DNA from: a phage
Sequence record: PZ445551.1
Strand: one strand, 5' to 3'
Length of the DNA: 64,000 bases
Position 1 is the first letter of the stretch; each line of letters begins with the position of its first letter. The notes under the pieces were generated by a model, which saw nothing but the letters and a program-made list of their open reading frames with translations, searched no databases and was not told where the DNA came from. A program made the position numbers and the translations under genes. Shown here piece after piece: positions 70 to 19,272 of the stretch.

Positions 70-2898
70 ATGTATCCTATTCCTTTATTTATGTCAACAA
101 CATCAGCTTCAGTAGTAACAGCTACATCTATAACCACTTCCTCTATTGGTATTGCAATAGTTGGTAGTAAAAAACAACTGACATATACAGTTACACCCGA
201 AGATGGTGCGTTATTTGATATAGCTTTTTCATCTTCAGATAATACCAAAATGGTTATAGATAATAATGGTATGATGGAGTTTGTTGCTGAAGGTGGTTTT
301 GATGCAATAATGACAGCTAAAAATAATTTAGGTGCTGTCTTAACTGATCAATCTGGTGGTTATGCTTCAGAATTAAGTGTGTACACTGAAAGTCTATCGG
401 CTATGGATGTAGGCACTACTCAACAGTTGGTTGCTACAATCAGTCCAGAAGGTGCTAAAGACCTTCCAGACATGGTAATTACATACACCACAACAGATCC
501 AGAAGTAGCTACTGTAAGCCCTACAGGATTAATAACTGCTCTTAAAGATGGCAATTGCCGTATAGGTTGTACTGCAACGTATCAAGGAACAGTTGTGGCC
601 TCTGATAGTTCTTATTTAGGTGTTAATGCTATTCCTGTTATTTCTAATGTAACAGCCGTGGCAAACAGTTATGGAGACGTTCGTGTTGCTTGGGATGTAA
701 CTGATCCGCTAGACGGTGATACTTATACTGTAGAAGTATTAGATTTAAGTAATAACAGTGTCCAATGGACTACAACAACCACGAATACTTACGCCTACTT
801 TGATATCTCTGACTCTATTCCTCTTTATGGGTTTGCTCCAACATACCTTAAAATTAGCGTTAAGAGCACCAAAGCAGCAGCCGTTATCTTTAATAATTCA
901 ATAGCTACAGATGATTCATTCATTAAAGAAGTTATTGTCTTTGCTGGACAAGATAACGTAAATGCACACTTTACAGAACTATCTGGTGCAAATAAAGCAG
1001 CAATGAGTAGCACAACAGCCCGTAATGCATATGCTACGCAACGTGGTTTAGCAAATGCTGAAGTTCTTCCGTTAAATACAGCTTCTGGATCATCAGCAGC
1101 AGATAAATATGCAGATGATAAAGCTGGAACAGGTACACCAGACAACTACTGGTATGATCTGGATAACACAGCAGATGGGCCATGTTTAACTAACTTTATC
1201 ACTAAAGTCACACCTTATGCAAGTAAGGTTAAAGCAATTATTTGGGGACAAGGTGAAAATGATGCTGTATCAGCATCTTCAACTGTTGCAGGTAGGTACA
1301 GTAACACTACACGTTACCATGATGCCACGATAGCCATTTTTGATAAGATGCGTACAATAGTTCCTGCTTCTCAAGCAAAAATTGTTTGGCAGATCCTAGG
1401 ACGTTCTTATTTATATGGTGTAGAAGTTAATGGTGTGGATTGGCAGAAGTACAGAAATGTACAAAGAACCATCTCTACAGCACGTGATGATGTTATCATT
1501 GGTTCTTGGGTAGATGGTGCTGAACGTTACAGTGGCTATGTTTATGAAGAAGGTATTGATGGTCGTATCCATTATGTTTCTTCTGTATACCAAACAGCAG
1601 CTACAAAACTTGCTAAATCGGCAGCAGACGGTACAGACTTAACATCAACGTCACCTGTTTGGGTTGATATGGCTGTTCCAACTGGAGCAACAGCTACTTC
1701 CCAACCTAATCAAGATACAATTTTAGCATGGGATGCTCAAGGCTATAGTAAACACTACTTCCGTAATATTAACGTCTTAACCGCATCTGTATTAACTGAA
1801 CAAACGCTTAATACGAACAGTTATACGTTTACCTATGCAGATCAAGTAGAACAATATGGTTTTGCAGCAGGAACTACTATATTTGATGTTGCATATTATG
1901 ATGAAGCAAATGATGTGTTATCTCCTTTAGTACGTTTTAATGTTAACGTTACAGCAGGAACCGTAGAAGATAAACCTGTCGTGATGGACTATGATTTGAC
2001 GCAAGAAACTCTTCCAGCAGATGTGCGCGTAAACAGGAGCAACCATTATGCTAGGGCTTCTGGAGATATCCTTGTACCGACAGAGGTTTCTGCTCCTATA
2101 GCACCTTTAGAATATATTGGTACAACGCCACAAGGTAGACGTGTTGTAGCAGCCAGCCGTACATATATCTTTGTCAACAATAACTTGACAACAGCTTCCC
2201 CGTGGTTGAAGACGAACTTGACAGTTACAGCATCAACAATCAACTCTCCGGTTGGAACTACAGCTAACACTTACAAGTTAACACCTTCTACAACTTCAGG
2301 ACAACATATTTTATCAGCGGTGAATACAGCTTCTGATATTACAGCAGGTAAACAATGGGCTGCATCTGTATTCTTGAAGCCAGACGGGATCACTAAAGTG
2401 AAGCTCAAATTGACTTCAGGAGATGAGGTTAACGAAGGGACTTATGATCTTGAAGCTGGAACATTTACAGGCACAGATGCAAATATGATCGACATGGGGA
2501 ATGGTTGGTATCGTGTAATCTTACATAAAGTAACGATTGCTAAACAAGCCTCTATGACTTATGAGATTATAGCTTTGAATGCCAGTGGATCAGACACTTT
2601 TGCAGGAGACGGCACTGGAGGTCTTATTGCTTGGGTTCCACAACTTGAAATGGGTGATATGACAAACCCAGTTTGGGCGGGGACACCATTTGTTTGTACT
2701 TATGCACGAGACACAGATAGTGCTGCCACCTTCACTATTCCTAAGAACGGACACACTGGCGTGGATATTTACCACACAGATGGAACTGTGCAAAGAGAGA
2801 TTTTCACTGGCACAGCTACTACTTGGATGTTGTCATTCAACGCCGCAAGTGCGGATTGGGGATCGAAATTCATTTCTGGTTTGAAATATTACGACTAA
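70..2898 (+). CDS. Tail fibre / receptor-binding protein with Ig-like (BIG2-type) domain and a possible carbohydrate-esterase (sialate-O-acetylesterase/SGNH-like) domain
   Basis: 942-aa ORF with SD aaggag upstream; Thr/Ser-rich N-terminus; BIG2-like motif (TGLITALKDGNCRIGCTATYQG); W-QGEND esterase-like motif in the middle; terminator immediately downstream. Confidence 0.65.
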   Translation: MYPIPLFMSTTSASVVTATSITTSSIGIAIVGSKKQLTYTVTPEDGALFDIAFSSSDNTKMVIDNNGMMEFVAEGGFDAIMTAKNNLGAVLTDQSGGYASELSVYTESLSAMDVGTTQQLVATISPEGAKDLPDMVITYTTTDPEVATVSPTGLITALKDGNCRIGCTATYQGTVVASDSSYLGVNAIPVISNVTAVANSYGDVRVAWDVTDPLDGDTYTVEVLDLSNNSVQWTTTTTNTYAYFDISDSIPLYGFAPTYLKISVKSTKAAAVIFNNSIATDDSFIKEVIVFAGQDNVNAHFTELSGANKAAMSSTTARNAYATQRGLANAEVLPLNTASGSSAADKYADDKAGTGTPDNYWYDLDNTADGPCLTNFITKVTPYASKVKAIIWGQGENDAVSASSTVAGRYSNTTRYHDATIAIFDKMRTIVPASQAKIVWQILGRSYLYGVEVNGVDWQKYRNVQRTISTARDDVIIGSWVDGAERYSGYVYEEGIDGRIHYVSSVYQTAATKLAKSAADGTDLTSTSPVWVDMAVPTGATATSQPNQDTILAWDAQGYSKHYFRNINVLTASVLTEQTLNTNSYTFTYADQVEQYGFAAGTTIFDVAYYDEANDVLSPLVRFNVNVTAGTVEDKPVVMDYDLTQETLPADVRVNRSNHYARASGDILVPTEVSAPIAPLEYIGTTPQGRRVVAASRTYIFVNNNLTTASPWLKTNLTVTASTINSPVGTTANTYKLTPSTTSGQHILSAVNTASDITAGKQWAASVFLKPDGITKVKLKLTSGDEVNEGTYDLEAGTFTGTDANMIDMGNGWYRVILHKVTIAKQASMTYEIIALNASGSDTFAGDGTGGLIAWVPQLEMGDMTNPVWAGTPFVCTYARDTDSAATFTIPKNGHTGVDIYHTDGTVQREIFTGTATTWMLSFNAASADWGSKFISGLKYYD

Positions 2899-4053: not shown

Positions 4054-4063
4054 TATATCTCCT

Positions 4064-5061: not shown

Positions 5062-5077
5062 AAATTCTCCTCTATAA

Positions 5078-5476: not shown

Positions 5477-5519
5477 TCAAGTCCTCATAATAACACATAA
5501 TTATAATGTTTGTCAACAC

Positions 5520-6250: not shown

Positions 6251-8830
6251 TCAATGACAACTAGCCCATGAGTTACCAACATCGTAACCAGCAGTTAGAG
6301 GTACATTAAGATTGTAATACTCACCAGCTTTATTAACAGCGATAGATGCTAATTCTCCAGCACGACTGTAGGCTGTAAACCAACCACCTTTTGGAGACTC
6401 ATGTACGTTAGCCCAAATCTTGCCAGTACGTTTCTCTTCCTCTTCTTTCCAGGCATTAACTTTATCCAAACATTCTTTATCAATTTTCTTTTGTTCTTCT
6501 GGATCATCAACTTGAGTCCAACCTAAAGATTCTTTAGAGAACCATTTAAAATGCACCAGATCACGAGTTACTTCAAGCTGTGCTTCATCGTGATATGCAA
6601 TCATTTGTTGAACGAATGACTTATTTTTCCAGTCATCAACAAAAAAGTCAACAGCTAATCCTTCTTCTTCGATAAGATCGTCGTAGATAACCATTGCTCT
6701 TTTTGCACAAATAACACCACCGCTCTGGAACAGGGAGTTAAGTATTGCGTGTGCAGATCGTGTAGGTACTTTCCTACCATCAATACCAAGAATGTATTTC
6801 TTACCTGTTTTAACCCAAAAGTCATGCAGACGTTCTTTAAGAAGAGCAAGAGGCTTTGCAGCTTCCCAGAAAGCATCGTATACAAGCTGTCCTGTATACA
6901 TATCACTACCAATGGTTTTTGCTACTTTTGCAGCTTGAGCACCATAAGTAATACCATACTTAACAGATTTAGCAGGGCTTCGTTCAAACTTACGACCAAT
7001 AGTATCAGAAATACGTCGAGCCATCATTGTATGAACATCATTAGGTTTTTCCAACAATAGAGCATTACAATATTCGTGTGGTTCCTGCTCGTACCGCCAA
7101 CAGTAGTGTGATTCTATTTTTGCCTCAAGAGAATCAAAGTCATAACCAATTTGGAAGTATTTTGGAACTTCTACACCAAATAAGTTACGCATTTCATATC
7201 CGTACAGAGATGTTACACGTGGGATATTTGCTACTAACCTATGTTTCATACGAGATGTAGCTGCATCACACGTTGCAGCAGGAGTTGGTATACGACCATC
7301 AGCCCTTACTGCTGCCAGATAACCCTTATCGTAATCCTCTTCATCTTCTTCCCAATCAGCACCACCCCCTAGAATAGAGTTCCTACGGTGTTTATACGTA
7401 AGATACTGCACAATCTGCGTAGCATAAGGAAACTTTTCACCTAGTGCTTCCAAGTTAGGACAAATATCCTTCTCTTGCCCTTTTGTAAAGGAAGGGTTAG
7501 TAAGCACTTTAACACCACGACCTTTAGCTTTAGCAATACGATCTCTTAGTTTCCATTCCAAAGTTTCTGGTGTGCACTCCAGATGATCACATCTATCCTG
7601 GCAGAAGTTAGATGCTAATGTTTGATCAACATAGTCACGAATAGCTTTCTCCATTTGTGCTTCATCTTTCTTAATCTTAGTGCCAGATTTAAGAGTGATA
7701 TCTTTATCTTTATATTCAGATGGACTCCAACCTAAACCAACTAACCAATTTTTAATATGTGTAGTGTCATCTAAAGTAGCAGGTACTGTAGGATCACAAA
7801 TAGGTTCTTCTGCTGGAATAGGTAGTTTAAACTCTTTACCTAATGCAAATAACCACCAACCATCTTCTTTTTGTACAAGTTCACCAGAATGTTTCTCTGC
7901 AAACTTTATCATGTTACTTGAAGGTTCACCATTCTTTTTAAACTGTAGTTTAGGTGGAATGAATGATTTCAAATAACCTTTAGTAGCAGGTTTAGGAGGT
8001 AGTACAGGTTCTGCCTCTAAACGACATGCTTCCATTCGAGCATCCAGATCACGAATATTATCTTCTGCTTGTTTCATATTGAAAGCAAAGCCACGGTGCT
8101 CTTGACGTGTAATAATATCAGCTACACGTTGTTCTAAGTTAAATGGTTCAGACCACTTATTATAATCACCCCACTCTTCCATCAAATAACGGAACACTGC
8201 GGTGTTAGCTTTGTTATCGTAAATACAGTAATACAGCATATCTGCTGCAAATGTTCTAAATCTTTCAGTTTCAGGGATGTTTTTTCTGAAATCAATTTTA
8301 ACATCCCCTCCAGCTTTCTTAGATAACTCTGCCAGACTATGACCACCGAAGCGATCAGGGTTTAGTGTCTTACTTAAGATCATAGTATCACAAATTTCAA
8401 TGTTACTATTACCCCAAGTATTGTACTTAATACTGTAGTTGAGTTTAAAAAATAATTTAATTGCCAGTAAGTCGAAGTTAATGATGTTGTGTCCAACTAC
8501 TTTGGTAATTTTATAGTTTGAATTACCTTTAAATTTACCTGTTCCATTTACAAAATCAGGAAAATCTTTAAGAGGGAAATGGGTATATTCTAAATGCTCA
8601 TATTCCTCCAGTCGGTATTCATACTTTCCGTCAGTCTCAATATACGGACGACCATCGAAAAGATATTTATCACCATCATGGAAAGCAATAATCTCTCCAG
8701 TATCATGACTTTCGCACACAATACAGTGCATTGCAAAACTATCTTTTAAACGATATGGACTTGCCAAGTAATCTACACTTTCGTCATTAAGCAAGTTGTT
8801 ACTTTCAATGTCGAAAGTAAAAGCTCCCAT
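6251..8830 (-). CDS. DNA polymerase, family A (T7 gp5-like) with 3'-5' exonuclease domain
   Basis: Exo I motif FDIES at N-terminus; Pol motif B (RSPAKSVKYGITYG) and motif C (YHDE); 859 aa. Confidence 0.9.
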   Translation of the reverse strand: MGAFTFDIESNNLLNDESVDYLASPYRLKDSFAMHCIVCESHDTGEIIAFHDGDKYLFDGRPYIETDGKYEYRLEEYEHLEYTHFPLKDFPDFVNGTGKFKGNSNYKITKVVGHNIINFDLLAIKLFFKLNYSIKYNTWGNSNIEICDTMILSKTLNPDRFGGHSLAELSKKAGGDVKIDFRKNIPETERFRTFAADMLYYCIYDNKANTAVFRYLMEEWGDYNKWSEPFNLEQRVADIITRQEHRGFAFNMKQAEDNIRDLDARMEACRLEAEPVLPPKPATKGYLKSFIPPKLQFKKNGEPSSNMIKFAEKHSGELVQKEDGWWLFALGKEFKLPIPAEEPICDPTVPATLDDTTHIKNWLVGLGWSPSEYKDKDITLKSGTKIKKDEAQMEKAIRDYVDQTLASNFCQDRCDHLECTPETLEWKLRDRIAKAKGRGVKVLTNPSFTKGQEKDICPNLEALGEKFPYATQIVQYLTYKHRRNSILGGGADWEEDEEDYDKGYLAAVRADGRIPTPAATCDAATSRMKHRLVANIPRVTSLYGYEMRNLFGVEVPKYFQIGYDFDSLEAKIESHYCWRYEQEPHEYCNALLLEKPNDVHTMMARRISDTIGRKFERSPAKSVKYGITYGAQAAKVAKTIGSDMYTGQLVYDAFWEAAKPLALLKERLHDFWVKTGKKYILGIDGRKVPTRSAHAILNSLFQSGGVICAKRAMVIYDDLIEEEGLAVDFFVDDWKNKSFVQQMIAYHDEAQLEVTRDLVHFKWFSKESLGWTQVDDPEEQKKIDKECLDKVNAWKEEEEKRTGKIWANVHESPKGGWFTAYSRAGELASIAVNKAGEYYNLNVPLTAGYDVGNSWASCH

Positions 8831-8900
8831 TCTCCCTCCTTAAAATATTTCTAAAGTCTTAATTTGTTAATACTGTACCATAAATTAATTGTTTTGTAAA

Positions 8901-8914
8901 GGGGCTTTCGCCCC
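8901..8914. other. GC stem-loop (GGGGC-tttc-GCCCC) between a small gene and the polymerase gene
   Basis: Perfect 5-bp GC stem; weak U-tract in the minus (coding) direction, so function (attenuator, RNA stability or processing) is unclear. Confidence 0.35.
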
Positions 8915-8920
8915 TTCTTG

Positions 8921-9316
8921 TTATTTATTGTCAGCACTTAATTGTACTTTAATAAGGCAATTAGGGACACCATTGGTATTTCTCAAGCCTACACGTTCAA
9001 TTTTAACTGTCCCTGTTAAGCCACTAAAAGTGGAAACAATGTTATTAATGTTTTCATCCTTACTAGTGATATCAAGAACAACTTTATCACTAACATTTTT
9101 CAACATACGATCTACAAGCTCTCCCACAAAACCACTGGTAGTTTGAATGAGAAGGTATAGACAACCATCCTCAAACCACAAATGTTCACCATAAGCATAA
9201 CCGTATGGTTCTAATTCTGATCCGTCTTGAAATTTAAACTTAGCAATAGTTTTCGTATAATCATACGCTAAAGCAGAAGGGCATACCCCATAGAGGATAT
9301 TTTCATTGTCTTTCAT
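8921..9316 (-). CDS. Hypothetical protein (start set at internal ATG with strong SD)
   Basis: SD AAGGAG 8 nt upstream of ATG at 9316; the longest ORF would overlap the primase gene by 119 nt. Confidence 0.55.
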   Translation of the reverse strand: MKDNENILYGVCPSALAYDYTKTIAKFKFQDGSELEPYGYAYGEHLWFEDGCLYLLIQTTSGFVGELVDRMLKNVSDKVVLDITSKDENINNIVSTFSGLTGTVKIERVGLRNTNGVPNCLIKVQLSADNK

Positions 9317-9326
9317 ATTTTTCTCC

Positions 9327-11099
9327 TTAATAAGAACCAGCAGAAATATTTTCTGGGTTACTTGTGTATTGATCGTAATCGTGAAGTGTAGCTGTTTTAA
9401 TCTCATAGAAGAAACTACCTGCTGCACCAGTCTCTGAGAACTCACGGTTCTTTAGAATGTAGCAATATGTGCGGTTACGTTCCATAGGATCTTCAGCTTG
9501 TTTATCACGCTCCAGCGCAATTGTGATACCAGCACCTTTAGCAAGGAAGCTACTACCCATTGCATCATCTTCTACAATATGTTCATTACTATTGTTAGAA
9601 GACTTTTTAACGTGTGAAATTACAACAATGGTTATTGCATACTCTTTCATAATGCGTTTCAGCCACGTCGCAAGTTCCTCTTGTTGTGACACGTCCATAC
9701 CAGAAAGCAAATCAGAATAAGGGTCGATAACAAGAATGGTTACTCCGAAATAAATAATCATTTCCAGAACCTTCTCTTTAATCACATCTACGTTAGCTCC
9801 ACGATCATCACAAACATAGAAACGTGGTGTTCCATCTTCCCGTTCGTAAAAATCACGAATCTTTTCTTCATTATCTTTTAAAATCTTTTCCTTCTCTTCT
9901 TTCGTTTTACGGTGAAGAGGGATATGCAAGAATGAAGACAGTAAGTTACGAGAATACTTCTTATACGTTGCCTCCAAAGATAAAATACCAAGAGTATGTT
10001 CTGGGTGTGCAAGAATAATGTGTTTCGTAATCTCGTTAACCAACAGTGTCTTACCGATACTTGTTTTTGCAAGTATAACAGTAATTTCTTCTTCTACCAA
10101 GCCTCCACCTAACATATTAGAAGCAACACGCATGAATGGAGGAAGGGTAATCATTTTAGCTTCCAGGCATTCCAAGGCTGCTTCATACAGTACGTTAGAA
10201 GCGTAAACACCAGCAGGTGTGTATAGTTTAGCTTTGAAAAAGCGATCAATAAAATGATCAATTTTTCCTTCTACTAGTGCCTGGTTAGGATCTTTAACAT
10301 CAGTTAGTTCCATCACGTAAACTTTATTACGTGGTAAGATTTTAACACATTTCTCAACTGCTGCACGTCCAGCTTCATCATTATCCATACATAGAACAAT
10401 CTTTTTAAATTGATCTAAGAATTTATAACGATGTTGAAGCTGCTTATGCAGAGATGTTTCGCCACAAGTACCAGATACTACAGCAGGAACAGGATATTTA
10501 CCACCCTTGTTATAATCTTTTAGCATCTGTGTTGCAGCCAGCATATCGTGTTCACCACCAACGATTAGAATAGTACCGCTGTGGTTACGATATTTAAACT
10601 CCCCAAAAAGATCACAATCCTTTCCTGTTTCACCGATAGGATGTGAGAAATCTTTTGGATCGATACGTTGTTTATACCCAGCAATATTGTAATCTTTAGT
10701 TGTAGGGTATAGTGTTGAAATTACTTCGCCAGTAGCTTCATCGTACATATAGCGTACACCGAAAGGCTTAGAGATATCTTCACGAATACCGCGATAACCT
10801 TTTGGATTAGTTCCAGTGCTGGCTTTTAGTTTATCATGTACTTCTGGATTAAACTCACTACCCAAGATATCCTCCTCTTCAATTTCTTCGCCGTGTGCAT
10901 TTAACCATTTTTGATCAGGGATAGTAAAGCCACAAGAAAAACAATGTGCGCCTCGATGGTCTTCATCGGCATCTAAGCCATATACCATCAAATTGTTTTG
11001 TGATCGATCACGCCCTCCTTTCATACAACGAGGACACCCAGTATGTCCTTCTTGACTTAGATCAATGTTATACCCATATTTATTTACAACATAAGACAC
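9327..11099 (-). CDS. Bifunctional DNA primase-helicase (T7 gp4-like: zinc ribbon, TOPRIM, DnaB-type helicase)
   Basis: N-terminal Cys4 zinc motif (CPRC...CFSCGF), TOPRIM DxD (CMDNDEAG), Walker A AKTSIGKT; 590 aa. Confidence 0.9.
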   Translation of the reverse strand: MSYVVNKYGYNIDLSQEGHTGCPRCMKGGRDRSQNNLMVYGLDADEDHRGAHCFSCGFTIPDQKWLNAHGEEIEEEDILGSEFNPEVHDKLKASTGTNPKGYRGIREDISKPFGVRYMYDEATGEVISTLYPTTKDYNIAGYKQRIDPKDFSHPIGETGKDCDLFGEFKYRNHSGTILIVGGEHDMLAATQMLKDYNKGGKYPVPAVVSGTCGETSLHKQLQHRYKFLDQFKKIVLCMDNDEAGRAAVEKCVKILPRNKVYVMELTDVKDPNQALVEGKIDHFIDRFFKAKLYTPAGVYASNVLYEAALECLEAKMITLPPFMRVASNMLGGGLVEEEITVILAKTSIGKTLLVNEITKHIILAHPEHTLGILSLEATYKKYSRNLLSSFLHIPLHRKTKEEKEKILKDNEEKIRDFYEREDGTPRFYVCDDRGANVDVIKEKVLEMIIYFGVTILVIDPYSDLLSGMDVSQQEELATWLKRIMKEYAITIVVISHVKKSSNNSNEHIVEDDAMGSSFLAKGAGITIALERDKQAEDPMERNRTYCYILKNREFSETGAAGSFFYEIKTATLHDYDQYTSNPENISAGSY

Positions 11100-11111
11100 A
11101 TGATTCTCCTA

Positions 11112-11381
11112 CTAAAATGATTCGTTTGTCTCCATAATATATTGCATTTCCAAATCTTCCATATGTTTCTTAAATTGGTAAACAATTTCCGATGGGGAAA
11201 TATCTATATCAAAAAGTTCTTTTGTACCAGAATAAAACCTAATACCATCAACAATAAGACCACCATAATAATCCCAATCACTTTCTCGTGAGAAAGGGTT
11301 AGGTTCTTCATAATAGTAATCTACTTCAACAATAATAGGTTCTTTATTATCTTGTTTATACTCAAAATCAAAAGTGTTCAT
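11112..11381 (-). CDS. Hypothetical protein (acidic, 89 aa)
   Basis: ORF in operon context, start adjacent to the upstream stop. Confidence 0.5.
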   Translation of the reverse strand: MNTFDFEYKQDNKEPIIVEVDYYYEEPNPFSRESDWDYYGGLIVDGIRFYSGTKELFDIDISPSEIVYQFKKHMEDLEMQYIMETNESF

Positions 11382-12325
11382 TATAAATCCTCGATAAGCA
11401 GTCTGCGGGTTTCATTTAAATCATCAATATTGTAGTTATCTCTTACATACTTAGCAAGAGCCAATCCTTTCTCAATACAAACATCAGGAGATTCGATTAA
11501 GTATTCTACAATATCTTTCCACTCTTTAACTGAATCAGCAAAGAAGATTAGATCTTTAAATTCTTCAGTATAATAGTTCTCTCGTGGCGAACAAACGAGT
11601 GGCAAACCTTTAGCACCAGCTTCAAGAATTTTTAAATTACTTTTGGCATTATTAAAATGATTATTTACTAATGGAGCTATGGAGATTTGATGACCATCAT
11701 ACGCTTCCATATAACACTCATAAGGACGAATACCTTCATAAACACAATCTGGTTGAATATCTTCTTTAATTTGCAACCATTGAGCACTACTTAACTCTTC
11801 GTGATCTCTACGAAATCCACATAAAGTTAAATCTTTACCAAAATCAGGAAGAATTGCTAAATCATGTTTATGTGTTTCACTTCCCGCCCAAACCAGTGGA
11901 CTTTTAGAATAACGGTCTTTCGTAAGAACAAACTGTCCTTCATCAAAAGGTAGTCCGTTAGGCACAATATGTACATTATCATTGTATTGGCTTAATTCAA
12001 CCTTTAATGCCGGAGTTGTTGTAGTTACAAGATCGCTTCTTTCAAGGAACCATTTTAGGTCATCTCGGATTTGATTTTCAAATAGTCCTTCAAGCATGTG
12101 CCCTTCAGGAATAATTAAAGAATCATCCAGATCCATTACCAATTTAAACCCAAGTTGTTTAAGAGCCAGGAAACCTGGCTTTCCACGTGTTGGTACTCCA
12201 TTGAACACAAAAATATTATGCTTAGGATTAATGGTCAGTTTGCGTTTATATGGCAAAATGATTCTATGAAAATCACATACACTATACTTTTCATTTCCGC
12301 GTGTGTCAAGAATAATATTAGGCAT
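11381..12325 (-). CDS. Glycosyltransferase (GT-B-like), paralog of 12337-13311
   Basis: Shares LTKDRYS...WAG and SNLKILEAGAKGLP motifs with the adjacent paralog; 314 aa. Confidence 0.65.
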   Translation of the reverse strand: MPNIILDTRGNEKYSVCDFHRIILPYKRKLTINPKHNIFVFNGVPTRGKPGFLALKQLGFKLVMDLDDSLIIPEGHMLEGLFENQIRDDLKWFLERSDLVTTTTPALKVELSQYNDNVHIVPNGLPFDEGQFVLTKDRYSKSPLVWAGSETHKHDLAILPDFGKDLTLCGFRRDHEELSSAQWLQIKEDIQPDCVYEGIRPYECYMEAYDGHQISIAPLVNNHFNNAKSNLKILEAGAKGLPLVCSPRENYYTEEFKDLIFFADSVKEWKDIVEYLIESPDVCIEKGLALAKYVRDNYNIDDLNETRRLLIEDL

Positions 12326-12336
12326 ATAACTCCTTG

Positions 12337-13311
12337 TTAAAGACTTTCAATAACTTGACGACGCAGTTCATTGGCATCTGCAAGATTATAATTAAGACGA
12401 ACGTGTTCTGCAAGCATCATACCACGATCTTCTGTGTATCTAGGGTTCCTCATTAGCTTGACAACTTCATAATGCCAAGATGCTTTAGAGTCTGCATAGA
12501 TAACAGCCTTTGCATCTACCGGATTGAAGTACGGCAGCACAGGAGAACAGATAATAGGAAGACCCTTTGCACCTGCTTCCAAAATCTTCAAATTGCTTTT
12601 ACAGTTGTTGAAGTCATTATCTACCAGAGGAGCAATTGCAATACTGTGACCGTCATACACAGACATATACTCACCTAAATTTTTAATAGCTGGTTTATAC
12701 TGTGCATTTGGAATTTTACGTTTTACTTTAACCCACTCCGCAGTAGTTAGATACTGACTATTATTTCCAACAGGTGCAGAAGGATACACTTCATACCCTG
12801 CAATTGTCAATAGCGTATCATCAAATGTATTAGCTACAAGAGATAAATCAGGTTCATGGCTTGCTCCTCCCGCCCAAATAATAGGCGTGTCAGAATAACG
12901 GTCTTTTGTCAAAGTAAATTGACCTTCGTCGTAAGGTAGTGCGTTTCTAACAACGACAACATTACGATTTAAATGACGAATTTTGTAAGCTAGGTATTCT
13001 GTTGTTACAGTAACCACATCTGCTAACTTAATCATCTCTACAATAGTCTTTGAGTGATTAGTAAATACGCCAGCCATATAATGTTCAGGATTAAGCGAAT
13101 AAAAATCATCTAAATCAACAATAATCTTAACACCTTGTGCCTTCAGGCGTTTAACTTCGTCTGATCCACGAGAATACACTCTATTAAAAACTAAAACGTC
13201 TTTCTTAGGTTTAAACGTATTTCCAGCAAATGGCATTACAATACGATGGTAATCACAACCACTGCCTAACTTATTATCACACTTAAGTACAGGAGTATTA
13301 GGATTTACCAT
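12337..13311 (-). CDS. Glycosyltransferase (GT-B-like), paralog of 11381-12325
   Basis: Start set at ATG 13311 (SD GGAGG upstream; N-terminus then aligns with the paralog); longest ORF runs to 13350. Confidence 0.65.
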   Translation of the reverse strand: MVNPNTPVLKCDNKLGSGCDYHRIVMPFAGNTFKPKKDVLVFNRVYSRGSDEVKRLKAQGVKIIVDLDDFYSLNPEHYMAGVFTNHSKTIVEMIKLADVVTVTTEYLAYKIRHLNRNVVVVRNALPYDEGQFTLTKDRYSDTPIIWAGGASHEPDLSLVANTFDDTLLTIAGYEVYPSAPVGNNSQYLTTAEWVKVKRKIPNAQYKPAIKNLGEYMSVYDGHSIAIAPLVDNDFNNCKSNLKILEAGAKGLPIICSPVLPYFNPVDAKAVIYADSKASWHYEVVKLMRNPRYTEDRGMMLAEHVRLNYNLADANELRRQVIESL

Positions 13312-13984
13312 ATTTTTGAGCCTCCTCATAAGAGATAAAAGTTTTACCATTGCGAAGATCCTCCAGTGATTGTTTATATTGTTCCCAGTTTACACCAATC
13401 CCCTGTTCTTTCTCTTCTTTTGACAGATTCGCAAAAGGTAAAGGATTGTCTCCAAACACATCGTCAGGATGGATAAACGCCATAATTCGAATAGGACATG
13501 GTACGCCGTGAATACCTCGGTTCAAACCTGCCAGTGGAACGCGCTGAATCCACTCTGCATCTTCATATCCATAACCGTGGGTGTATGAGCGGAAATAGCC
13601 AGCTTTCTCAATAACTGCACGGGAATACATACCAAACTGGCACATGCCTAGCTCCCAAATAACCACTTCTCCTTCAATACCTTTTACTTTATCTTTAAAG
13701 TATTCAGGCATACCAAAGAAATCCCAACCATTTTCCTTCGCCTGTTTTACAAAATATGTTTCCCAACCTGGAACAACAGGATAGCAATCATCATCAAAAA
13801 TAAACCAGTAGTCATACCCTTCATCATAAAACTTTTTCATCAGTTCATTACGGGCATATGCAACACCTTTTCGTTCACGATCATACTGTACAACAAAAGT
13901 AGCATTAGGATCAGTCACAAGATAATCTTTAAGAGGACGCTTACCTACAGTAATAACACCAACACCAATTTTTGTATTTTCCAA
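13298..13984 (-). CDS. Glycosyltransferase, GT-A fold (family 2-like, DxD motif)
   Basis: GVGVITVGKR N-terminus and FIFDDDCYP DxD-type motif; 228 aa. Confidence 0.6.
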   Translation of the reverse strand: MENTKIGVGVITVGKRPLKDYLVTDPNATFVVQYDRERKGVAYARNELMKKFYDEGYDYWFIFDDDCYPVVPGWETYFVKQAKENGWDFFGMPEYFKDKVKGIEGEVVIWELGMCQFGMYSRAVIEKAGYFRSYTHGYGYEDAEWIQRVPLAGLNRGIHGVPCPIRIMAFIHPDDVFGDNPLPFANLSKEEKEQGIGVNWEQYKQSLEDLRNGKTFISYEEAQKYGKS

Positions 13985-13993
13985 AATAACTCC

Positions 13994-14557
13994 TTAAATA
14001 ATTTTATTCATGTCTTGACAATGTAAAAGGTGTGAAACAGCTTTTCTAGGATCATCATTACCTAAACGGTATGTGTGAAATAAATATAACCCACGTAGTA
14101 AACCTAGCCTTTTATTGTTAGCGTGCAATGCTTTAGAGAAAATTATATCAAACTGTATTGATCTTTCCTCAAAAGGCATTTCATTCCACAGACTCTTACG
14201 AAAGAGAAGAAAGAATCCTGCTAAGATAGCATCTGTAGGTACTTCCTCTATTGAGTTTCCCCATTCTAGATGTGCTCTTTTTGCAATCTCAATGTGGTGT
14301 AATATATTCGGATCTTCACTTCTTTCATTATTAAATAATTGATATGTTGATCCCAATCTGTTACAAGATGCACCAAGAACATCAAAATCAGGATTTGAAC
14401 GGACAATTGATTCCAGCCAAGCAGGTTGTTCTGGAAGAAGAAACATTGTATCAATGTCTCTTAGGCAAATCCAACTATCTTCTGGTAAGACACTTATTGT
14501 GTCATTGATACCTTTTCCAATATCTCCAGAAAGATAGGGAGTTATGTGAAATATCAT
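13994..14557 (-). CDS. Hypothetical protein, possible nucleotide-sugar transferase
   Basis: 187-aa ORF co-operonic with the glycosyltransferases; LRDIDTMF DxD-like motif. Confidence 0.5.
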   Translation of the reverse strand: MIFHITPYLSGDIGKGINDTISVLPEDSWICLRDIDTMFLLPEQPAWLESIVRSNPDFDVLGASCNRLGSTYQLFNNERSEDPNILHHIEIAKRAHLEWGNSIEEVPTDAILAGFFLLFRKSLWNEMPFEERSIQFDIIFSKALHANNKRLGLLRGLYLFHTYRLGNDDPRKAVSHLLHCQDMNKII

Positions 14558-14614
14558 ACTCCCTCCGTATTATTACTTTAGCATTTTTAGACTAAAAAGT
14601 CCAAATGGTTTTAC

Positions 14615-14809
14615 CTATTGATTACGTTTTGCGAGTTCCATTTGGATAGCTAAACTGTGATCTCGTGCTTCCATATACTCTTTATATGTTTCATTAAGAT
14701 GATCACGACAAACATCACGCAGTTTAATCAGTTTATCTGTAGGGATACCACTAAGATCATCCCAAGATTTTACAACTTCACCAGTATCATTGATCCCAAT
14801 GGTTTTCAT
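14615..14809 (-). CDS. Hypothetical small protein
   Basis: 64-aa ORF. Confidence 0.45.
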   Translation of the reverse strand: MKTIGINDTGEVVKSWDDLSGIPTDKLIKLRDVCRDHLNETYKEYMEARDHSLAIQMELAKRNQ

Positions 14810-15017
14810 CTACAACCTCCTTAATTGCTACAGCACAGTTTTTGCAGATACACTGCCCTTTACCTTTAGAAATCTGGATGTAAGGTTCATTTTCATTTTC
14901 GCCCTTACGTGAGTCATATATTACAGAATTGAAGCACACAACGCAAATATTTTTTAAGATTGTATACTTATCAACTTTCTTTTTTGTTTTAAAGTTAACT
15001 TCAATAACATCAGCCAT
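14787..15017 (-). CDS. Small zinc-ribbon protein (CxxC...CxxC)
   Basis: Two CxxC pairs (CVVCF...CICKNC); start set at ATG 15017 forming an ATGA overlap with the upstream stop. Confidence 0.5.
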   Translation of the reverse strand: MADVIEVNFKTKKKVDKYTILKNICVVCFNSVIYDSRKGENENEPYIQISKGKGQCICKNCAVAIKEVVDENHWDQ

Positions 15018-15305: not shown

Positions 15306-15815
15306 TTAGCGATAGAATTGATGTTCTTTGTAGCGGTACACTAGAACCATATCTTTTTCCCAGTGTGCTCTTATTGTAGATTTTTTAAAGTATAATGCTC
15401 CTTTTGTAATATCTAATGCAATTCGTAATTCTGGAAAATGCGTATCGAGATAAAGTAGACGTTCTGCTATAGCCTTAGCTTCCTTCCACTTATCACGTTC
15501 CATAACGTTGAATGTCTTTGTGTAAGAGAATTGTCCTTTTTGAAACAAAACTTCTTTTATAGTATCAGGGAAATATGAATCTCTAGCCCTATTCAATACT
15601 ACATTACCAACAGCAGACATACCGCGCTTTCCTTGATTACGACTTTCTGCATAGATTGCACAAGCTAATAGATTTTCTTTACTATCACGCTTTGTACACT
15701 TGTGAACTACTTTAGCAGTTTTTACGTTTGCAGCTTCGGCTTGCGCCACAACAGGTGTAAATGTAAAAGCAGTTAAGGATAGTAACGCAATTGCGACAAA
15801 GGTTTTTATTGACAA
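15306..15815 (-). CDS. Secreted cell-wall hydrolase (SleB/CwlJ Hydrolase_2-like), candidate endolysin
   Basis: N-terminal signal peptide (AFTFTPVVAQA); Hydrolase_2 signature CAIYAESRNQ...AVGNVVLNR. Confidence 0.7.
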   Translation of the reverse strand: MSIKTFVAIALLSLTAFTFTPVVAQAEAANVKTAKVVHKCTKRDSKENLLACAIYAESRNQGKRGMSAVGNVVLNRARDSYFPDTIKEVLFQKGQFSYTKTFNVMERDKWKEAKAIAERLLYLDTHFPELRIALDITKGALYFKKSTIRAHWEKDMVLVYRYKEHQFYR

Positions 15816-16535: not shown

Positions 16536-16556
16536 ATGCGCCCCGAAGGGCGCTAT
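16536..16556 (-). terminator. Intrinsic terminator (GCGCCC-UUCG-GGGCGC + AU-rich tail)
   Basis: Perfect stem and tetraloop between the TerD stop and the RBS of the next gene. Confidence 0.5.
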
Positions 16557-16562: not shown

Positions 16563-17159
16563 TTACTCGAACCAATCGTCGCCAGCGCCAAACGCTTTAA
16601 CTACATCGTAAATGTCAAGCCCAGCTTTACCCACACCATACGCTTTCAGTTTCCATTCGCTATCTTCTCGCACCAGGGAGGCAACGTGGCAAATGGTGTT
16701 ACCTGCAAGTTCTGGAGCCAAGAAGTCAAAGTCCAGCAGTTCAACATTACGTTCATCATCGAAGATTTTAAGGAAACCTTCGGTAGCGTGACCAAGGCGT
16801 TTCTTACCCGTTTCGTCATCAATAGTAATTACGAATGCAATTTCCTGTGCTTCAGCAGAGATATTATCCAGTGTAACATCAATCTGCTCCATCTGTCCTA
16901 CACCATCACGAACATCTTCACCTGCAAAAGTAGAACGTTCAGGATCAAATTTCTGCGCGTAGCACACCAGGTGACGAGGAGACAACAGTTCCGGCAGACC
17001 AGATGCATTGTGTCGGCAAATCAGAGCACTAACATCCAGATCCAGTTTTTCGTTAGATTTCCAAGAGAATTCCAGACGAATGCGTTTCAGTGCTGGTGCA
17101 ATCTTTTTCAGAGAAACTTTTTCGCTAGAACCTTTTTTCAGGGAAATTTTCTGAGTCAT
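16563..17159 (-). CDS. TerD-domain protein (tellurite-resistance / stress-response TerD family)
   Basis: N-terminal ISLKKG...VSLKK, LDLDVSA, GEDVRDG and C-terminal GxGKAG pattern typical of TerD; 198 aa. Confidence 0.8.
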   Translation of the reverse strand: MTQKISLKKGSSEKVSLKKIAPALKRIRLEFSWKSNEKLDLDVSALICRHNASGLPELLSPRHLVCYAQKFDPERSTFAGEDVRDGVGQMEQIDVTLDNISAEAQEIAFVITIDDETGKKRLGHATEGFLKIFDDERNVELLDFDFLAPELAGNTICHVASLVREDSEWKLKAYGVGKAGLDIYDVVKAFGAGDDWFE

Positions 17160-17231
17160 AATTTATTATCTCCTTTGTTGTTAATTTACGTTGTCTATTT
17201 TACTAATCTTTTCTACAAAGTCAAGCGTTTT

Positions 17232-18026
17232 TTACGCTTTTGCTCCAAATTTTTTAACCCACTCACCAAACTCTTCGGATAGCAGTTTATCGTAAAGTTC
17301 TTCGTCAGACAAGGACAAATCTGCAATACCGATAAAATCAACATTATCGTATTCTTTTGCCAAGTCTTTCAGGAATTTAAAGTTTGCATTACCTACACCA
17401 ACCATAAACCAGTAAACAGGTGTATTGCGGTGTTTGTTCAGTAAGCTACGTACTGCTGAAGTATCCATGTTCTCCCCGTCAGTTTGGAAGAAAATCATTG
17501 CAGGAGTACGATCAACTTGTGCATCAGTATCTACAACCTGTTCTACAACAGTACGTGTTACTTCTACAAGTTCTTTTTTACCAGTTAGTTTAGCAAGGAA
17601 ACCTTTAGCCGGAACTTCTTCATACTCAACGACTTCGCGTGTAATATTTTTCATAGGTACACTACCGAAGTATGTATCATAGATCTCTTGCATTACTGGA
17701 GCATAAGCAGTACCACCGTTGATGCAAACATTAGACATGCAAGAGCCGACATAATCATCATACACATCAGCCGTTGCAGGAGGCAGTTCAAAAGAAGAAC
17801 TATTGAAAGCCCACATGTCAATCTGTGCATTATCATCAAACTTCATACCAAACGGCAGCAGTTTACCTACAAAATCGCTAACAGTGCCATCACGATACAG
17901 CTCACACATACTACCCGAAATATCTAAGGCGCTACCTACACGAAGAACAACATCGTTAATCTTTTTCTTACGCAGGGATACAGTAAGAGTTTCTTGACGT
18001 TTTTTAAGACTGATTTTATTGGACAT
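17232..18026 (-). CDS. von Willebrand factor A (vWA) domain protein, TerY-like
   Basis: MIDAS motif DISGSM; sits next to TerD as in Ter operons. Confidence 0.7.
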   Translation of the reverse strand: MSNKISLKKRQETLTVSLRKKKINDVVLRVGSALDISGSMCELYRDGTVSDFVGKLLPFGMKFDDNAQIDMWAFNSSSFELPPATADVYDDYVGSCMSNVCINGGTAYAPVMQEIYDTYFGSVPMKNITREVVEYEEVPAKGFLAKLTGKKELVEVTRTVVEQVVDTDAQVDRTPAMIFFQTDGENMDTSAVRSLLNKHRNTPVYWFMVGVGNANFKFLKDLAKEYDNVDFIGIADLSLSDEELYDKLLSEEFGEWVKKFGAKA

Positions 18027-18027
18027 A

Positions 18028-19259: not shown

Positions 19260-19272
19260 AATATATTTCTCC

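What the first reader, a model, noticed from the sequence alone, without database searches (positions are those of the whole stretch)
11381..14557. Cluster of three to four glycosyltransferases inside the replication block
Two paralogous GT-B-like enzymes, a GT-A (DxD) enzyme and a further putative transferase are co-transcribed between the primase-helicase and the cell-wall hydrolase, in the same block as a DNA methyltransferase. In phages, such clusters often glycosylate modified DNA bases to evade restriction, or modify the host surface. No hydroxymethylase was seen in this window, so the substrate is unknown.
Basis: inference. Interest (0 to 1): 0.55.

Follow-up and report, generated by a model that had tools for sequence, protein, structure and literature searches.

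The report
Phage glycosyltransferase cluster, probably not DNA-modifying
A phi92-like E. coli phage carries four adjacent sugar-transferase genes plus its own rhamnose-donor pathway; published restriction data and comparative genomics argue against sugar-coated DNA and point instead to glycosylation of proteins, most likely the virus particle itself, which has not been tested.

Summary
Four tightly packed minus-strand genes at 11381-14557 encode two paralogous GT4-like GT-B enzymes (41% identity), one GT2-like GT-A enzyme with a DDD motif, and one small putative GT. The window is a phi92-like coliphage (Justusliebigvirus), 100% identical to phage VivaForever over this region.

The DNA-glycosylation reading is disfavoured:
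- No hydroxymethylase or TET was found in the genome.
- Near-identical BASEL phages Bas60-62 give no plaques on EcoRI, EcoRV or EcoP1 hosts.
- Fold searches rank known DNA glycosyltransferases below generic GT4/GT2 enzymes.

New points:
- A complete rmlBACD (dTDP-L-rhamnose) operon lies about 70 kb away and co-occurs with the cluster across the same two phage genera.
- The GT-A + GT-B pair is a mobile module. In Pseudomonas prophages, one family of metagenomic phages and, as the GT-B alone, a Streptomyces phage, it sits directly upstream of the terminase/portal/capsid genes.
- The GT-A matches a glycosyltransferase in the Cluster F mycobacteriophage locus whose Che8 counterpart glycosylates capsid and tail.
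- Bacterial GT-B homologs sit next to invasin-type adhesins.

Best guess (about 0.4): a rhamnose-containing O-glycan on virion proteins. Host-envelope remodelling is the main rival. The genes are already annotated in over 100 genomes, and their function is untested.

The parts
11381..12325 (-). ORF1 (phi92 gp163 equivalent): GT4-like GT-B glycosyltransferase, acidic (pI 5.1), no TM segment
12337..13350 (-). ORF2: paralog of ORF1 (GT-B), basic (pI 8.9). The true start is probably the ATG at 13311 (324 aa), preceded by GAGGAGG.
   Evidence: 41% identity to ORF1, E = 3e-83. phrog_7162 E = 5e-149. Homologs of this paralog are 322-328 aa. Both candidate starts have Shine-Dalgarno sequences.
13298..13984 (-). 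ORF3: GT2-like (inverting-type) GT-A glycosyltransferase with R16, D64-D65-D66 and E141-D142; TTG start 5 nt after GGAG
13994..14557 (-). ORF4: small putative GT-A-like transferase with invariant D34-x-D36, H161, Y163 and R164; fold not verified
   Evidence: phrog_14179 E = 2e-112 and the C-terminal half of phrog_26101. Alignment A2. No Pfam hit, only faint GT2-type hits in 3 of 31 members. Distant homologs sit inside multi-gene glycan clusters in L010 and L011.
11112..11381 (-). Small conserved ORF (89 aa, phrog_4240) between the GT-B and the primase/helicase. It is syntenic in distant relatives; its role is unknown and it may belong to the replication genes rather than the GT module.
   Evidence: An 83-85 aa ORF occupies the same position in L007, L008 and L013.
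16538..16553 (-). GC-rich hairpin (GCGCCC-TTCG-GGGCGC) after terD: the only terminator-like site upstream of the cluster, and the likely 5' boundary of the transcription unit that runs through the GT genes into primase/helicase
   Evidence: This is a consensus scan only. The count of such sites is not above the shuffled expectation.
70..2898 (+). Lateral tail fibre with Big_2 (Ig-like) domains: a candidate protein acceptor only (inference, not shown)
   Evidence: PF02368 Big_2 54.9 bits. GT-A/GT-B or GT-B homologs sit next to Big_2/Big_1 proteins in Pseudomonas prophages and Burkholderiaceae.

Best explanation
The four genes are a cytoplasmic glycan-assembly module. Using phage-made dTDP-L-rhamnose and probably host UDP-sugars, it builds a short rhamnose-containing O-glycan on proteins, most likely structural proteins of the phage particle. 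Candidates are tail fibres or other surface-exposed subunits, possibly those with Ig-like domains.

The conserved core is the ORF3-type GT-A plus an ORF1-type GT-B. The second GT-B paralog and ORF4 would add or diversify sugars.

Shown:
- Enzyme folds and motifs.
- Paralogy of ORF1 and ORF2.
- A complete rmlBACD operon in the same genome.
- Phyletic co-occurrence of rml and the GT cluster.
- The mobile GT-A/GT-B pair and its neighbourhoods in other phages and bacteria.

Inferred:
- The donor used by each enzyme.
- That the acceptor is a protein.
- That the protein is part of the virion.
For: 1. The donor is linked to the transferases. rmlB, rmlA, rmlC and rmlD all score above NCBIfam cut-offs in the identical phage. 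RmlC occurs in 55 records at >=95% identity and 77 at 60-80%. That matches ORF4 (55 and 77) and ORF1 (54 and 74).

2. The ORF3-type GT-A and ORF1-type GT-B are adjacent in independent lineages:
- phi92-like and phAPEC8-like phages.
- L007, L008 and L013.
- Four Pseudomonas prophages, scoring 252 and 376 bits against my profiles.
- L025.

3. In the smaller phages a module containing the GT-B lies in or just upstream of the packaging and head genes:
- Pseudomonas prophages: Big_2 protein, GT-A, GT-B, metallopeptidase, TerS-like, TerL, portal, MuF.
- L025: GT-A, GT-B, TerS, TerL, portal, protease, capsid.
- L027: the GT-B lies about 4 kb upstream of TerS; an acetyltransferase and an unrelated GT2 directly precede TerS and TerL.
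- Streptomyces phage KimJongPhill: UDP-Glc dehydrogenase, methyltransferase, GT-B, TerS, TerL, portal, capsid.
- L010: ORF4 homologs lie between terminase and portal.
Che8 has a comparable layout, with gp108-110 and an HNH gene at the right genome end.

4. Outside its own phage group, ORF3 matches the GT-A domain of Boomer gp102-type proteins in about 340 mycobacteriophage records. Boomer gp102 shares a locus with gp105, which is 82% identical to Che8 gp110. Che8 gp110 is reported as essential for capsid glycosylation, and Che8 capsid and tail-tube proteins are glycosylated (PMC12363180; PMC11256854).

5. Bacterial GT-B homologs at 34-35% identity follow inverse-autotransporter invasins with Big_1/Big_2 domains and a T/P-rich protein of about 560 aa, in B. 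dolosa and Trinickia. From established knowledge, this is the usual layout for adhesin glycosyltransferases such as aah-aidA, tibC-tibA and hmw1C.

6. All four proteins lack TM segments and three are acidic. That fits a cytoplasmic protein acceptor.
Against: - No glycoprotein has been demonstrated for any phi92-like or phAPEC8-like virion. I could not read the phi92 proteome paper or Freeman et al. 2023.
- No ortholog of the Che8 enzymes gp108-110 is present.
- In this phage the cluster lies in the replication block with polymerase and primase, not with structural genes.
- Neighbourhood arguments are circumstantial. A position just before the terminase would also suit an enzyme that modifies DNA before packaging.
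- In one distant phage (L022) the GT-B sits among nucleotide-pool and DNA-metabolism genes.
- Ser/Thr-rich tails in this phage's structural proteins are unremarkable. The exceptions are the sheath C-terminus (NRTANSQNSNSSTVSS) and the portal C-terminus.
Confidence: 0.4

Rival explanations
1. Host-envelope remodelling. The soluble GTs act at the inner face of the membrane on lipid-linked intermediates or lipid A-core (LPS core, ECA, NGR, O-antigen or colanic acid precursors) and add rhamnose or other sugars. Infected cells and their debris then stop binding phage, giving superinfection exclusion and less loss of progeny.
For: - Structural neighbours are dominated by enzymes that act on undecaprenyl- or lipid-linked and cell-wall glycans. 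These include PglA, WlaC, PimA, WbnH, WaaG, GlfT2, TarP, TarS and the Listeria rhamnosyltransferase RmlT.
- The cluster shares a transcription unit with a signal-peptide-bearing SleB-type wall hydrolase and adjoins a Ter membrane-stress cluster.
- These phages recognise several surface glycans and depend strictly on LPS core and wecB.
- ORF4 relatives occur with Glf, DegT, deacetylase, sugar methyltransferases and Stealth-like genes typical of polysaccharide synthesis.
Against: - No membrane component (flippase, polymerase, bactoprenol-GT or Gtr-type protein) accompanies the cluster, and no TM segment is present in the four GTs.
- The PDB is biased toward such enzymes, so the fold hits discriminate poorly.
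- The recurrent position next to terminase/head genes, Big-domain proteins and adhesins is not predicted by this model.
Confidence: 0.27
2. DNA glycosylation. The GTs transfer rhamnose or other sugars to a modified base in phage DNA, perhaps only at rare or sequence-specific sites.
For: - The cluster sits between DNA polymerase/primase and nucleotide-metabolism genes, and this synteny is conserved in L007, L008 and L013.
- 16 of 17 ORF3-family members give weak TAGT (PF20691) matches and carry an R...DDD...ED pattern like DNA-acting phage GT-A enzymes.
- In L022 the GT-B lies among MazG, a dATP/dGTP diphosphohydrolase, RNR and RecA.
- The phage encodes Dcm- and Dam-type methyltransferases and a divergent ThyX.
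- The idea has been published as speculation (PMC7552041; PMC10844046).
Against: - Bas60, Bas61 and Bas62 give no plaques on EcoRI, EcoRV or EcoP1 hosts in every replicate. The authors call the group 'exceptionally susceptible' to RM.
- Every known DNA glycosylation needs a hydroxylated base. None of the enzymes that make one was found by Pharokka annotation, curated BASEL annotation or my Pfam/NCBIfam checks of 20 proteins.
- The window ORF3 scores 23.3 bits against TAGT, below the 27.5 gathering score. GT2 and GT7C match the family about as well.
- Known DNA GTs rank below generic GT4 enzymes, and none is named in the top 50 viral fold matches.
- Three of the four proteins are acidic.
Confidence: 0.07
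3. Another cytoplasmic acceptor. This could be a host protein (takeover by glycosylation), an RNA such as a queuosine-type tRNA base (the phage carries 15 tRNAs), or a small molecule linked to the neighbouring Ter/PRTase/HAD/Macro genes.
For: - The enzymes are soluble and the GT4 and GT2 folds are generic. Top GT-B matches include small-molecule enzymes such as sucrose-phosphate synthase, BshA and TreT.
- The cluster lies about 2 kb from a Ter cluster, which is followed about 9 kb away by Macro, PRTase and HAD genes. The Ter system has been proposed to make a nucleoside-like metabolite (Anantharaman et al. 2012, cited).
- The genome carries tRNA-Asn and tRNA-Tyr genes.
Against: - The GT pair occurs without Ter, PRTase or tRNA genes in the Pseudomonas prophages, L025 and the Streptomyces phage.
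- No specific homology to any known protein-toxin, tRNA or metabolite GT was found, and PADLOC gave no hits.
- A dedicated rml operon implies high donor demand, which fits a stoichiometric structural target better.
Confidence: 0.14

Closest known systems
Mycobacteriophage virion-glycosylation loci (Che8 gp108-110; Boomer gp102/gp105; Freeman et al. 2023, read only through citing papers)
   Same: - Phage-encoded soluble GT-A enzymes in a multi-GT locus.
- ORF3 is homologous to the Boomer gp102 GT-A domain (E = 6.5e-14; 71.5 bits by profile).
- Relatives of the ORF3/ORF1 pair sit just upstream of the terminase/head genes, as the Che8 locus does across the genome ends.
- Sugar methyltransferase domains accompany distant relatives, as in Che8 gp108.
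   Different: - No ortholog of Che8 gp108, gp109 or the GT25-like gp110.
- This cluster has two GT4-like GT-B enzymes that Che8 lacks.
- It is backed by a phage rmlBACD operon.
- The host is Gram-negative.
- In this phage the cluster lies in the replication block.
- Virion glycosylation is not demonstrated here.
T-even DNA glucosyltransferases and TET/ThyA-linked phage DNA glycosyltransferases (T4 alpha-/beta-GT, TAGT PF20691, HY126/RB69 arabinosyltransferases)
   Same: - GT-B and GT-A folds.
- Location among replication and nucleotide-metabolism genes.
- Several sequential GTs.
- Weak TAGT similarity and an R...DDD...ED pattern in ORF3.
   Different: - No hydroxymethylase, 5hoC synthase or TET was found.
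- DNA of near-identical phages is fully restricted by EcoRI, EcoRV and EcoP1.
- ORF3 scores below the TAGT gathering score.
- Known DNA GTs are not the nearest structures.
Giant-virus capsid glycosylation machinery (e.g. chlorovirus PBCV-1 A064R and relatives, Mimivirus GTs)
   Same: - The virus encodes both sugar-nucleotide synthesis and several soluble GTs that act in the cytoplasm.
- Rhamnose is a typical component (established knowledge).
- The PBCV-1 A64R domain, Mimivirus R699/R655 and Megavirus GTs appear among ORF3's structural matches.
   Different: - The hosts are eukaryotic.
- No shared gene order.
Adhesin O-glycosyltransferases encoded beside their autotransporter substrates (Aah/AIDA-I, TibC/TibA, HMW1C/HMW1; from established knowledge)
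   Same: Bacterial homologs of ORF1 (34-35% identity) lie immediately downstream of inverse-autotransporter invasins with Ig-like domains. This is the gene arrangement typical of such systems.
   Different: - No sequence relationship to the Aah/TibC or HMW1C families was tested or seen.
- The Burkholderiaceae system is itself uncharacterised.
Prophage O-antigen modification systems (GtrABC, Oac)
   Same: They are phage-encoded glycosylation systems that alter a surface glycan recognised by phages.
   Different: Gtr systems need a membrane flippase, a bactoprenol GT and a periplasmic-facing GT. The four GTs here have no TM segments, and no flippase, bactoprenol GT or Gtr-type gene is annotated in the neighbourhood. 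The phage is also virulent.

Membership tests
GT4-like GT-B glycosyltransferases (ORF1, ORF2) | Two-Rossmann-domain GT-B fold, closest to GT4 enzymes | tested here: met
   [not shown]
GT4-like GT-B glycosyltransferases (ORF1, ORF2) | Pfam group-1 GT domain at or above the gathering score | tested here: inconclusive
   ORF1 scores 26.8 bits on PF13524 against a cut-off of 25. ORF2 scores 14.7 (PF13524) and 18.1 (PF13692), both below their cut-offs.
GT4-like GT-B glycosyltransferases (ORF1, ORF2) | E-x7-E motif in the C-terminal domain | tested here: inconclusive
   The second Glu (E235 in L-E-A-G-A) is invariant. The position eight residues before it is Ala, with invariant K228-S229 next to it (read from the sequence).
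GT2-like GT-A glycosyltransferases (ORF3) | GT-A fold with a DxD metal/nucleotide motif and a downstream acidic ED motif | tested here: met
   [not shown]
GT-A-like glycosyltransferase (ORF4) | Recognisable GT-A fold or profile match | tested here: inconclusive
   PHROG families labelled glycosyltransferase and an invariant DxD. No Pfam hit, only 3 of 31 members with faint GT2-type hits. hhalign against the ORF3 family gave probability 0.7%.
TAGT, TET-associated DNA glycosyltransferases (PF20691) | Profile score at or above the Pfam gathering score | tested here: not met
   ORF3 scores 23.3 bits against 27.5, covering residues 16-75 only. 16 of 17 family members hit TAGT weakly, with best E = 6.8e-5 from the window member. 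Scores of the other members were not listed.
TAGT, TET-associated DNA glycosyltransferases (PF20691) | Genomic association with a TET/JBP dioxygenase or a ThyA-type hydroxymethylase/hydroxylase | tested here: not met
   None appears in the Pharokka or BASEL annotations of whole genomes, nor in my scans of 20 candidate proteins including the Dcm neighbours. The only TS homolog is ThyX (PF02511, 37 bits). Not every small ORF was scanned.
T4-type DNA alpha/beta-glucosyltransferases | Specific structural or sequence similarity to T4 AGT/BGT | tested here: not met
   [not shown]
T4-type DNA alpha/beta-glucosyltransferases | Virion DNA protected from restriction enzymes | tested here: not met
   Published raw data show no plaques for Bas60-62 on EcoRI, EcoRV and EcoP1 hosts. 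These phages are 98.8-98.9% identical to the window over 11000-15000. This is phenotype data from relatives, not from this isolate.
Mycobacteriophage virion-glycosylation system (Che8 type) | Ortholog of the essential GT Che8 gp110 (GT25-like) | tested here: not met
   No significant BLASTP or profile match of any of the four ORFs to Che8 gp108, gp109 or gp110.
Mycobacteriophage virion-glycosylation system (Che8 type) | Homology to another GT of the same locus in Cluster F phages | tested here: met
   ORF3 against Boomer gp102 residues 20-199: 27% identity, E = 6.5e-14; A1 profile 71.5 bits. About 340 mycobacteriophage records hit. Boomer gp105 is 82% identical to Che8 gp110.
Mycobacteriophage virion-glycosylation system (Che8 type) | Glycans covalently attached to capsid or tail proteins | not testable with these tools
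   This needs glycoprotein staining or mass spectrometry of purified virions.
dTDP-L-rhamnose pathway (RmlA-D) as donor supply | All four enzymes present above curated cut-offs in the same genome | tested here: met
   RmlB 444 bits (cut-off 365), RmlA 474 (361), RmlC 260 (156), RmlD 254 (224). The genes lie at VivaForever 58327-61588, outside the window. Co-occurrence with the GT cluster is shown.
Gtr-type prophage O-antigen glucosylation | Membrane flippase, bactoprenol-GT and serotype-specific membrane GT | tested here: not met
   Maximum 19-residue Kyte-Doolittle hydropathy is 0.8-1.2 for the four GTs. No flippase, bactoprenol GT or Gtr-type gene is annotated in the neighbourhood.

The most novel reading that the evidence does not exclude
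phi92-like and phAPEC8-like coliphages, which are broad-host-range therapy candidates, coat parts of their virions with a rhamnose-containing O-glycan. They would make it with a mobile GT-A/GT-B pair and their own dTDP-rhamnose pathway. The same pair would be a widespread protein-glycosylation module shared by phages of Proteobacteria and Actinobacteria and by bacterial invasin-type adhesin loci. This would be the first virion glycosylation system in phages of Gram-negative bacteria.
Probability: 0.35. Interest if true: 0.65.

Novelty: new variant of a known kind. Interest (0 to 1): 0.45.

Why it matters
phi92-like and phAPEC8-like phages have some of the broadest host ranges among coliphages and are being developed for therapy and biocontrol.

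If their particles carry a glycan coat, antibody recognition, clearance, stability and possibly receptor interactions could be affected, as reported for mycobacteriophages. Producing the phage on hosts with different sugar pools might then change its properties.

The analysis also corrects an idea that keeps being repeated in the literature, namely 'rhamnose modification' of the DNA of this subfamily. It contradicts existing restriction data and lacks the required base-hydroxylating enzyme.

Finally, the analysis defines a two-gene GT-A/GT-B module, present in many unrelated phages and some bacteria, that can be tested with simple experiments on phages already in public collections (Bas60-62).

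Tried and rejected
- **PDB sequence and profile searches.** The ORF3 and ORF4 families gave nothing significant. ORF1/2 gave only weak GT4 hits, plus a spurious match to a designed TIM barrel.
- **PADLOC.** No hits for the four GTs or four neighbouring ORFs.
- **Papers expected to be directly informative.** 'Paula' (hit H11) is not a Durham Collection phage, and the Durham paper covers only Straboviridae. The 5hoC paper concerns RB69, DLP3 and HY126. The phi92 genome paper and Freeman et al. 2023 are not held, so Che8 facts come from citing papers. The Jabs preprint text was not available.
- **rml genes in the window.** The downstream ORFs turned out to be a Ter cluster instead. The rml operon is about 70 kb away in the genome.
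- **hhalign of the ORF4 family** against the ORF3 family and Che8 gp109: not significant.
- **Ser/Thr-rich tails in structural proteins** as O-glycosylation sites: only weak hints, not used as evidence.
- **The small Pseudomonas Big_2 protein** against the window proteins: only a marginal match to the tail fibre's Big_2 region, E = 0.04.
- **Promoter scan.** The number of sigma-70-like sites is not above the shuffled expectation, so no promoter is claimed.
- **Gtr-like O-antigen modification** was considered and rejected because there are no membrane components.
- **EarP-type EF-P rhamnosylation** was considered from memory only and not pursued. No Pfam match to that family appeared.
- **Not used.** The 1.84-billion-protein HMMER job, because its output has no annotation or context.

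Full report
**What the window is.** Positions 11000-15000 are 100% identical to Escherichia phage VivaForever. They are 98.5-99.8% identical to the 29 other best-matching records listed, including phi92, PaulScherrer (Bas60) and EmilieFrey (Bas61). All 56 matching records are at least 95% identical. These phages belong to genus Justusliebigvirus, subfamily Stephanstirmvirinae. The four genes correspond to phi92 gp163-166. Many records already annotate them as glycosyltransferases, and the curated BASEL record calls them 'putative disaccharide synthase' (twice) and 'putative glycosyltransferase' (twice).

**Checking the observation.** Four minus-strand ORFs lie at exactly the reported coordinates.
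- ORF1 (11381-12325) and ORF2 (12337-13350) are paralogs with 41% identity, E = 3e-83. Both match phrog_7162.
- ORF1 passes the Pfam PF13524 cut-off. Its AlphaFold model (pLDDT 94) is a GT4-like GT-B.
- ORF3 (13298-13984) has an invariant DDD and ED across 17 family members. Its model (pLDDT 87.8) is a GT2-like GT-A.
- ORF4 (13994-14557) is only a putative transferase. It has PHROG labels and an invariant DxD, but no Pfam or profile support.

The genes are separated by at most 11 nt or overlap. ORF2 probably starts at 13311 rather than 13350, because both ATGs have good Shine-Dalgarno sequences and homologs are 322-328 aa. No terminator-like hairpin lies on the minus strand between the one after terD (16553-16538) and about 8900. 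One unit probably runs from about 16.5 kb through the SleB-type hydrolase and the GT genes into primase/helicase.

**The donor.** Olsen et al. 2020 stated that phi92-like and phAPEC8-like phages encode a complete dTDP-rhamnose pathway. It is not in the window. The ORFs downstream of the cluster are a Ter cluster (TerD, vWA-TerF, TelA, TerC) followed by Macro, a ComF-like PRTase and HAD. In the identical phage the pathway lies at 58327-61588, beside the RNR genes. RmlB, RmlA, RmlC and RmlD all score above NCBIfam's curated cut-offs. RmlC occurs in 55 phage records at >=95% identity and 77 at 60-80%. This matches ORF4 (55 and 77) and ORF1 (54 and 74). Donor pathway and transferases therefore travel together in the same two genera. 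Which of the four enzymes uses dTDP-rhamnose is not known.

**Is DNA the acceptor?** Every known DNA glycosylation uses a hydroxylated base made by a ThyA-type hydroxymethylase/hydroxylase or a TET/JBP dioxygenase.
- Neither enzyme appears in the Pharokka annotation of VivaForever or the curated annotation of PaulScherrer.
- Neither appears in my scans of 20 proteins, including the neighbours of the Dcm-type methyltransferase.
- The only thymidylate-synthase homolog is a divergent ThyX.
- BASEL raw data show no plaques for Bas60, Bas61 and Bas62 on hosts carrying EcoRI, EcoRV or EcoP1 in every replicate. EcoKI gave EOP 0.1-0.7. The authors describe the group as 'exceptionally susceptible' to RM despite a 'putative dTDP glycosylation machinery'.
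- For comparison, three Vequintavirus phages still plate at about 1e-4 to 1e-3 on EcoRI. That genus is not named among the organisms with hits to ORF1, ORF3 or ORF4.
- ORF3's TAGT match is below the gathering score and covers only the nucleotide-binding third. GT2 and GT7C match the family about as well.
- Three of the four proteins are acidic.

Points in favour of DNA remain. The synteny with primase/helicase and PolA is conserved. The R...DDD...ED pattern is shared with DNA-acting GT-A enzymes. One distant phage (L022) has the GT-B among MazG, a dATP/dGTP diphosphohydrolase, RNR and RecA. Bulk DNA glycosylation is excluded for this genus. Rare or site-specific modification cannot be excluded, and I give it about 0.07.

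**What the relatives show.** The ORF3-type GT-A and ORF1-type GT-B form a mobile pair.
- Four Pseudomonas chromosomes carry a prophage with a small T/S-rich Big_2 protein (in three of the four), the GT-A (252 bits to my ORF3 profile) and the GT-B (376 bits). These are followed by a metallopeptidase, a TerS-like protein, TerL, portal and MuF.
- In a 36-kb phage seen on eight contigs (L025), the pair opens the late operon before TerS, TerL, portal, protease and capsid.
- In L027 the GT-B lies about 4 kb upstream of TerS, and an acetyltransferase and an unrelated GT2 directly precede TerS and TerL.
- Streptomyces phage KimJongPhill has UDP-glucose dehydrogenase, a methyltransferase and a GT-B homolog, followed by TerS, TerL, portal and capsid.
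- ORF4 relatives lie in larger glycan clusters with Glf, GT2, GT-D-like, TOD1/MUCI70, DegT, deacetylase and sugar methyltransferases. In L010 this cluster sits between terminase and portal.

Outside its own phage group, ORF3's only relatives among cultured phages are GT-A domains of Boomer gp102-type proteins, found in about 340 mycobacteriophage records. Boomer gp102 shares its right-end locus with gp105, which is 82% identical to Che8 gp110. Che8 gp110 is reported as essential for capsid glycosylation, and Che8 capsid and tail-tube proteins are glycosylated. Che8's GTs lie with an HNH gene at the right genome end.

In B. dolosa and Trinickia, the GT-B (34-35% identity) follows an inverse-autotransporter invasin with Big_1/Big_2 domains and a T/P-rich protein of about 560 aa. 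From established knowledge, this is the arrangement of adhesin glycosyltransferases. The window's own tail fibre (70-2898) carries Big_2 domains.

**Most likely mechanism.** I propose that the cluster builds a short rhamnose-containing O-glycan on proteins in the cytoplasm, most likely on virion proteins. The GT-A/GT-B pair would be the core, and the second GT-B and ORF4 would extend or vary the glycan.

Shown:
- The enzyme folds.
- The paralogy of ORF1 and ORF2.
- The donor operon and its co-occurrence with the cluster.
- The mobile pair and its neighbourhoods.

Inferred:
- The protein acceptor.
- Its identity.

Confidence is about 0.4. The main rival is remodelling of host envelope glycans (about 0.27). 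It is supported by the lipid- and wall-glycan bias of the structural neighbours and by the envelope-related genes nearby. It is weakened by the lack of any membrane component and by the neighbourhood pattern in other phages. Other cytoplasmic acceptors (host protein, tRNA, small molecule) get about 0.14.

**Comparison with known systems and novelty.** The cluster is not a member of the T4 GT or TAGT families as tested, nor of the Che8 system in the strict sense, because it has no gp108-110 orthologs. It resembles the mycobacteriophage and giant-virus virion-glycosylation systems in logic: soluble GTs plus viral sugar-nucleotide synthesis. The genes are already annotated in over 100 genomes. 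DNA rhamnosylation has been speculated, and the conflicting RM phenotype is published. I found no study of their function. I rate it a new variant of a known kind, with moderate interest (0.45).

**Limits.**
- All acceptor arguments are comparative.
- The primary Che8 paper and the phi92 proteome paper could not be read.
- ORF4's fold is unverified.
- Not every small ORF was scanned for oxygenases.
- The RM data come from near-identical relatives, not from this isolate.

Noticed in passing
window 16563-25922 (minus strand): A phage-borne Ter (tellurite-resistance-type) cluster. It comprises TerD (16563-17159), vWA-TerF (17232-18026), TelA (19273-20376) and TerC (22167-23132), then Macro (23689-24522), a ComF-like PRTase (24398-25255) and HAD (25248-25922). 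Two unannotated ORFs (20445-21296, 21332-21937) lie inside it. Its presence in phi92 is already noted in the literature, and its role in infection is unknown.
   Followed up: partly
window 15306-15815 (minus strand): A SleB-type cell-wall hydrolase (PF07486) with a clear N-terminal signal peptide (…VVAQA/EAA). It appears to be co-transcribed just upstream of the GT genes. The genome has a separate endolysin elsewhere (bas60_0207), so this is a second, exported wall hydrolase of unknown role.
   Followed up: partly
phage collection records MG065645, MG065639, MG065656, MG065650 ('Campylobacter phage A145, A150, C3, B15'): Unannotated records of 146-151 kb labelled as Campylobacter jejuni phages. 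Across the GT genes they are about 99% identical at the protein level to Justusliebigvirus coliphages, or about 76% identical, like the Phapecoctavirus-type phages. They look like mislabelled or contaminating coliphage genomes.
   Followed up: no
window 6251-8830 and 32095-33870: The DNA polymerase (859 aa) and the UvrD/Rep-type helicase (591 aa) are intein-free in this isolate. The PaulScherrer orthologs each carry an intein.
   Followed up: no
L005 1456-2427 (VivaForever 51456-52427; outside the window): The phage 'thymidylate synthase' is an unusually long (323 aa), very divergent ThyX. It scores 35.8 bits on TIGR02170 against a cut-off of 87.9, and 37 bits on PF02511, covering only residues 22-170. 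It is flanked by thymidine kinase and an NT5C-like nucleotidase. It is probably a normal dTMP synthase, but its substrate is untested.
   Followed up: partly
L004 19204-20610 and 26354-27922 (VivaForever; outside the window): The tail sheath ends in an S/N/T-rich tail (…NRTANSQNSNSSTVSS). The portal ends in a G/S/T/A-rich segment. These are possible O-glycosylation sites, but this rests on composition alone.
   Followed up: no
L022 (Acetivibrio MAG contig, a phage) 371-10739: A distant GT-B homolog and a second GT4 enzyme lie among a dATP/dGTP diphosphohydrolase-NT5C fusion, class II RNR, RecA, MazG, HNH, Cpn10 and a resolvase. This phage may well modify its DNA and would be a good comparison case.
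   Followed up: no
L006 3025-8440 (B. dolosa) and L020 2807-8960 (Trinickia): A conserved three-gene bacterial locus: an inverse-autotransporter invasin (IAT_beta, Invasin_D3, Big_1, Big_2), then an uncharacterised T/P/A-rich protein of about 560 aa (30% identity between the two species), then a GT-B of the ORF1 family. It is a candidate adhesin-glycosylation system.
   Followed up: partly
whole genome of the identical phage: Five genes are annotated as DNA methyltransferases, including a Dam-like one at window 3322-4053 and a Dcm-type one. The genome also has NAMPT, PRPP synthetase, Sir2, a macrodomain protein and 15 tRNAs. Despite this large set of candidate anti-defence and metabolic genes, relatives are fully restricted by EcoRI, EcoRV and EcoP1.
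   Followed up: no
window about 40000: GC skew changes sign at about 40 kb and gene orientation switches from minus to plus. This marks a divergent transcription boundary.
   Followed up: no
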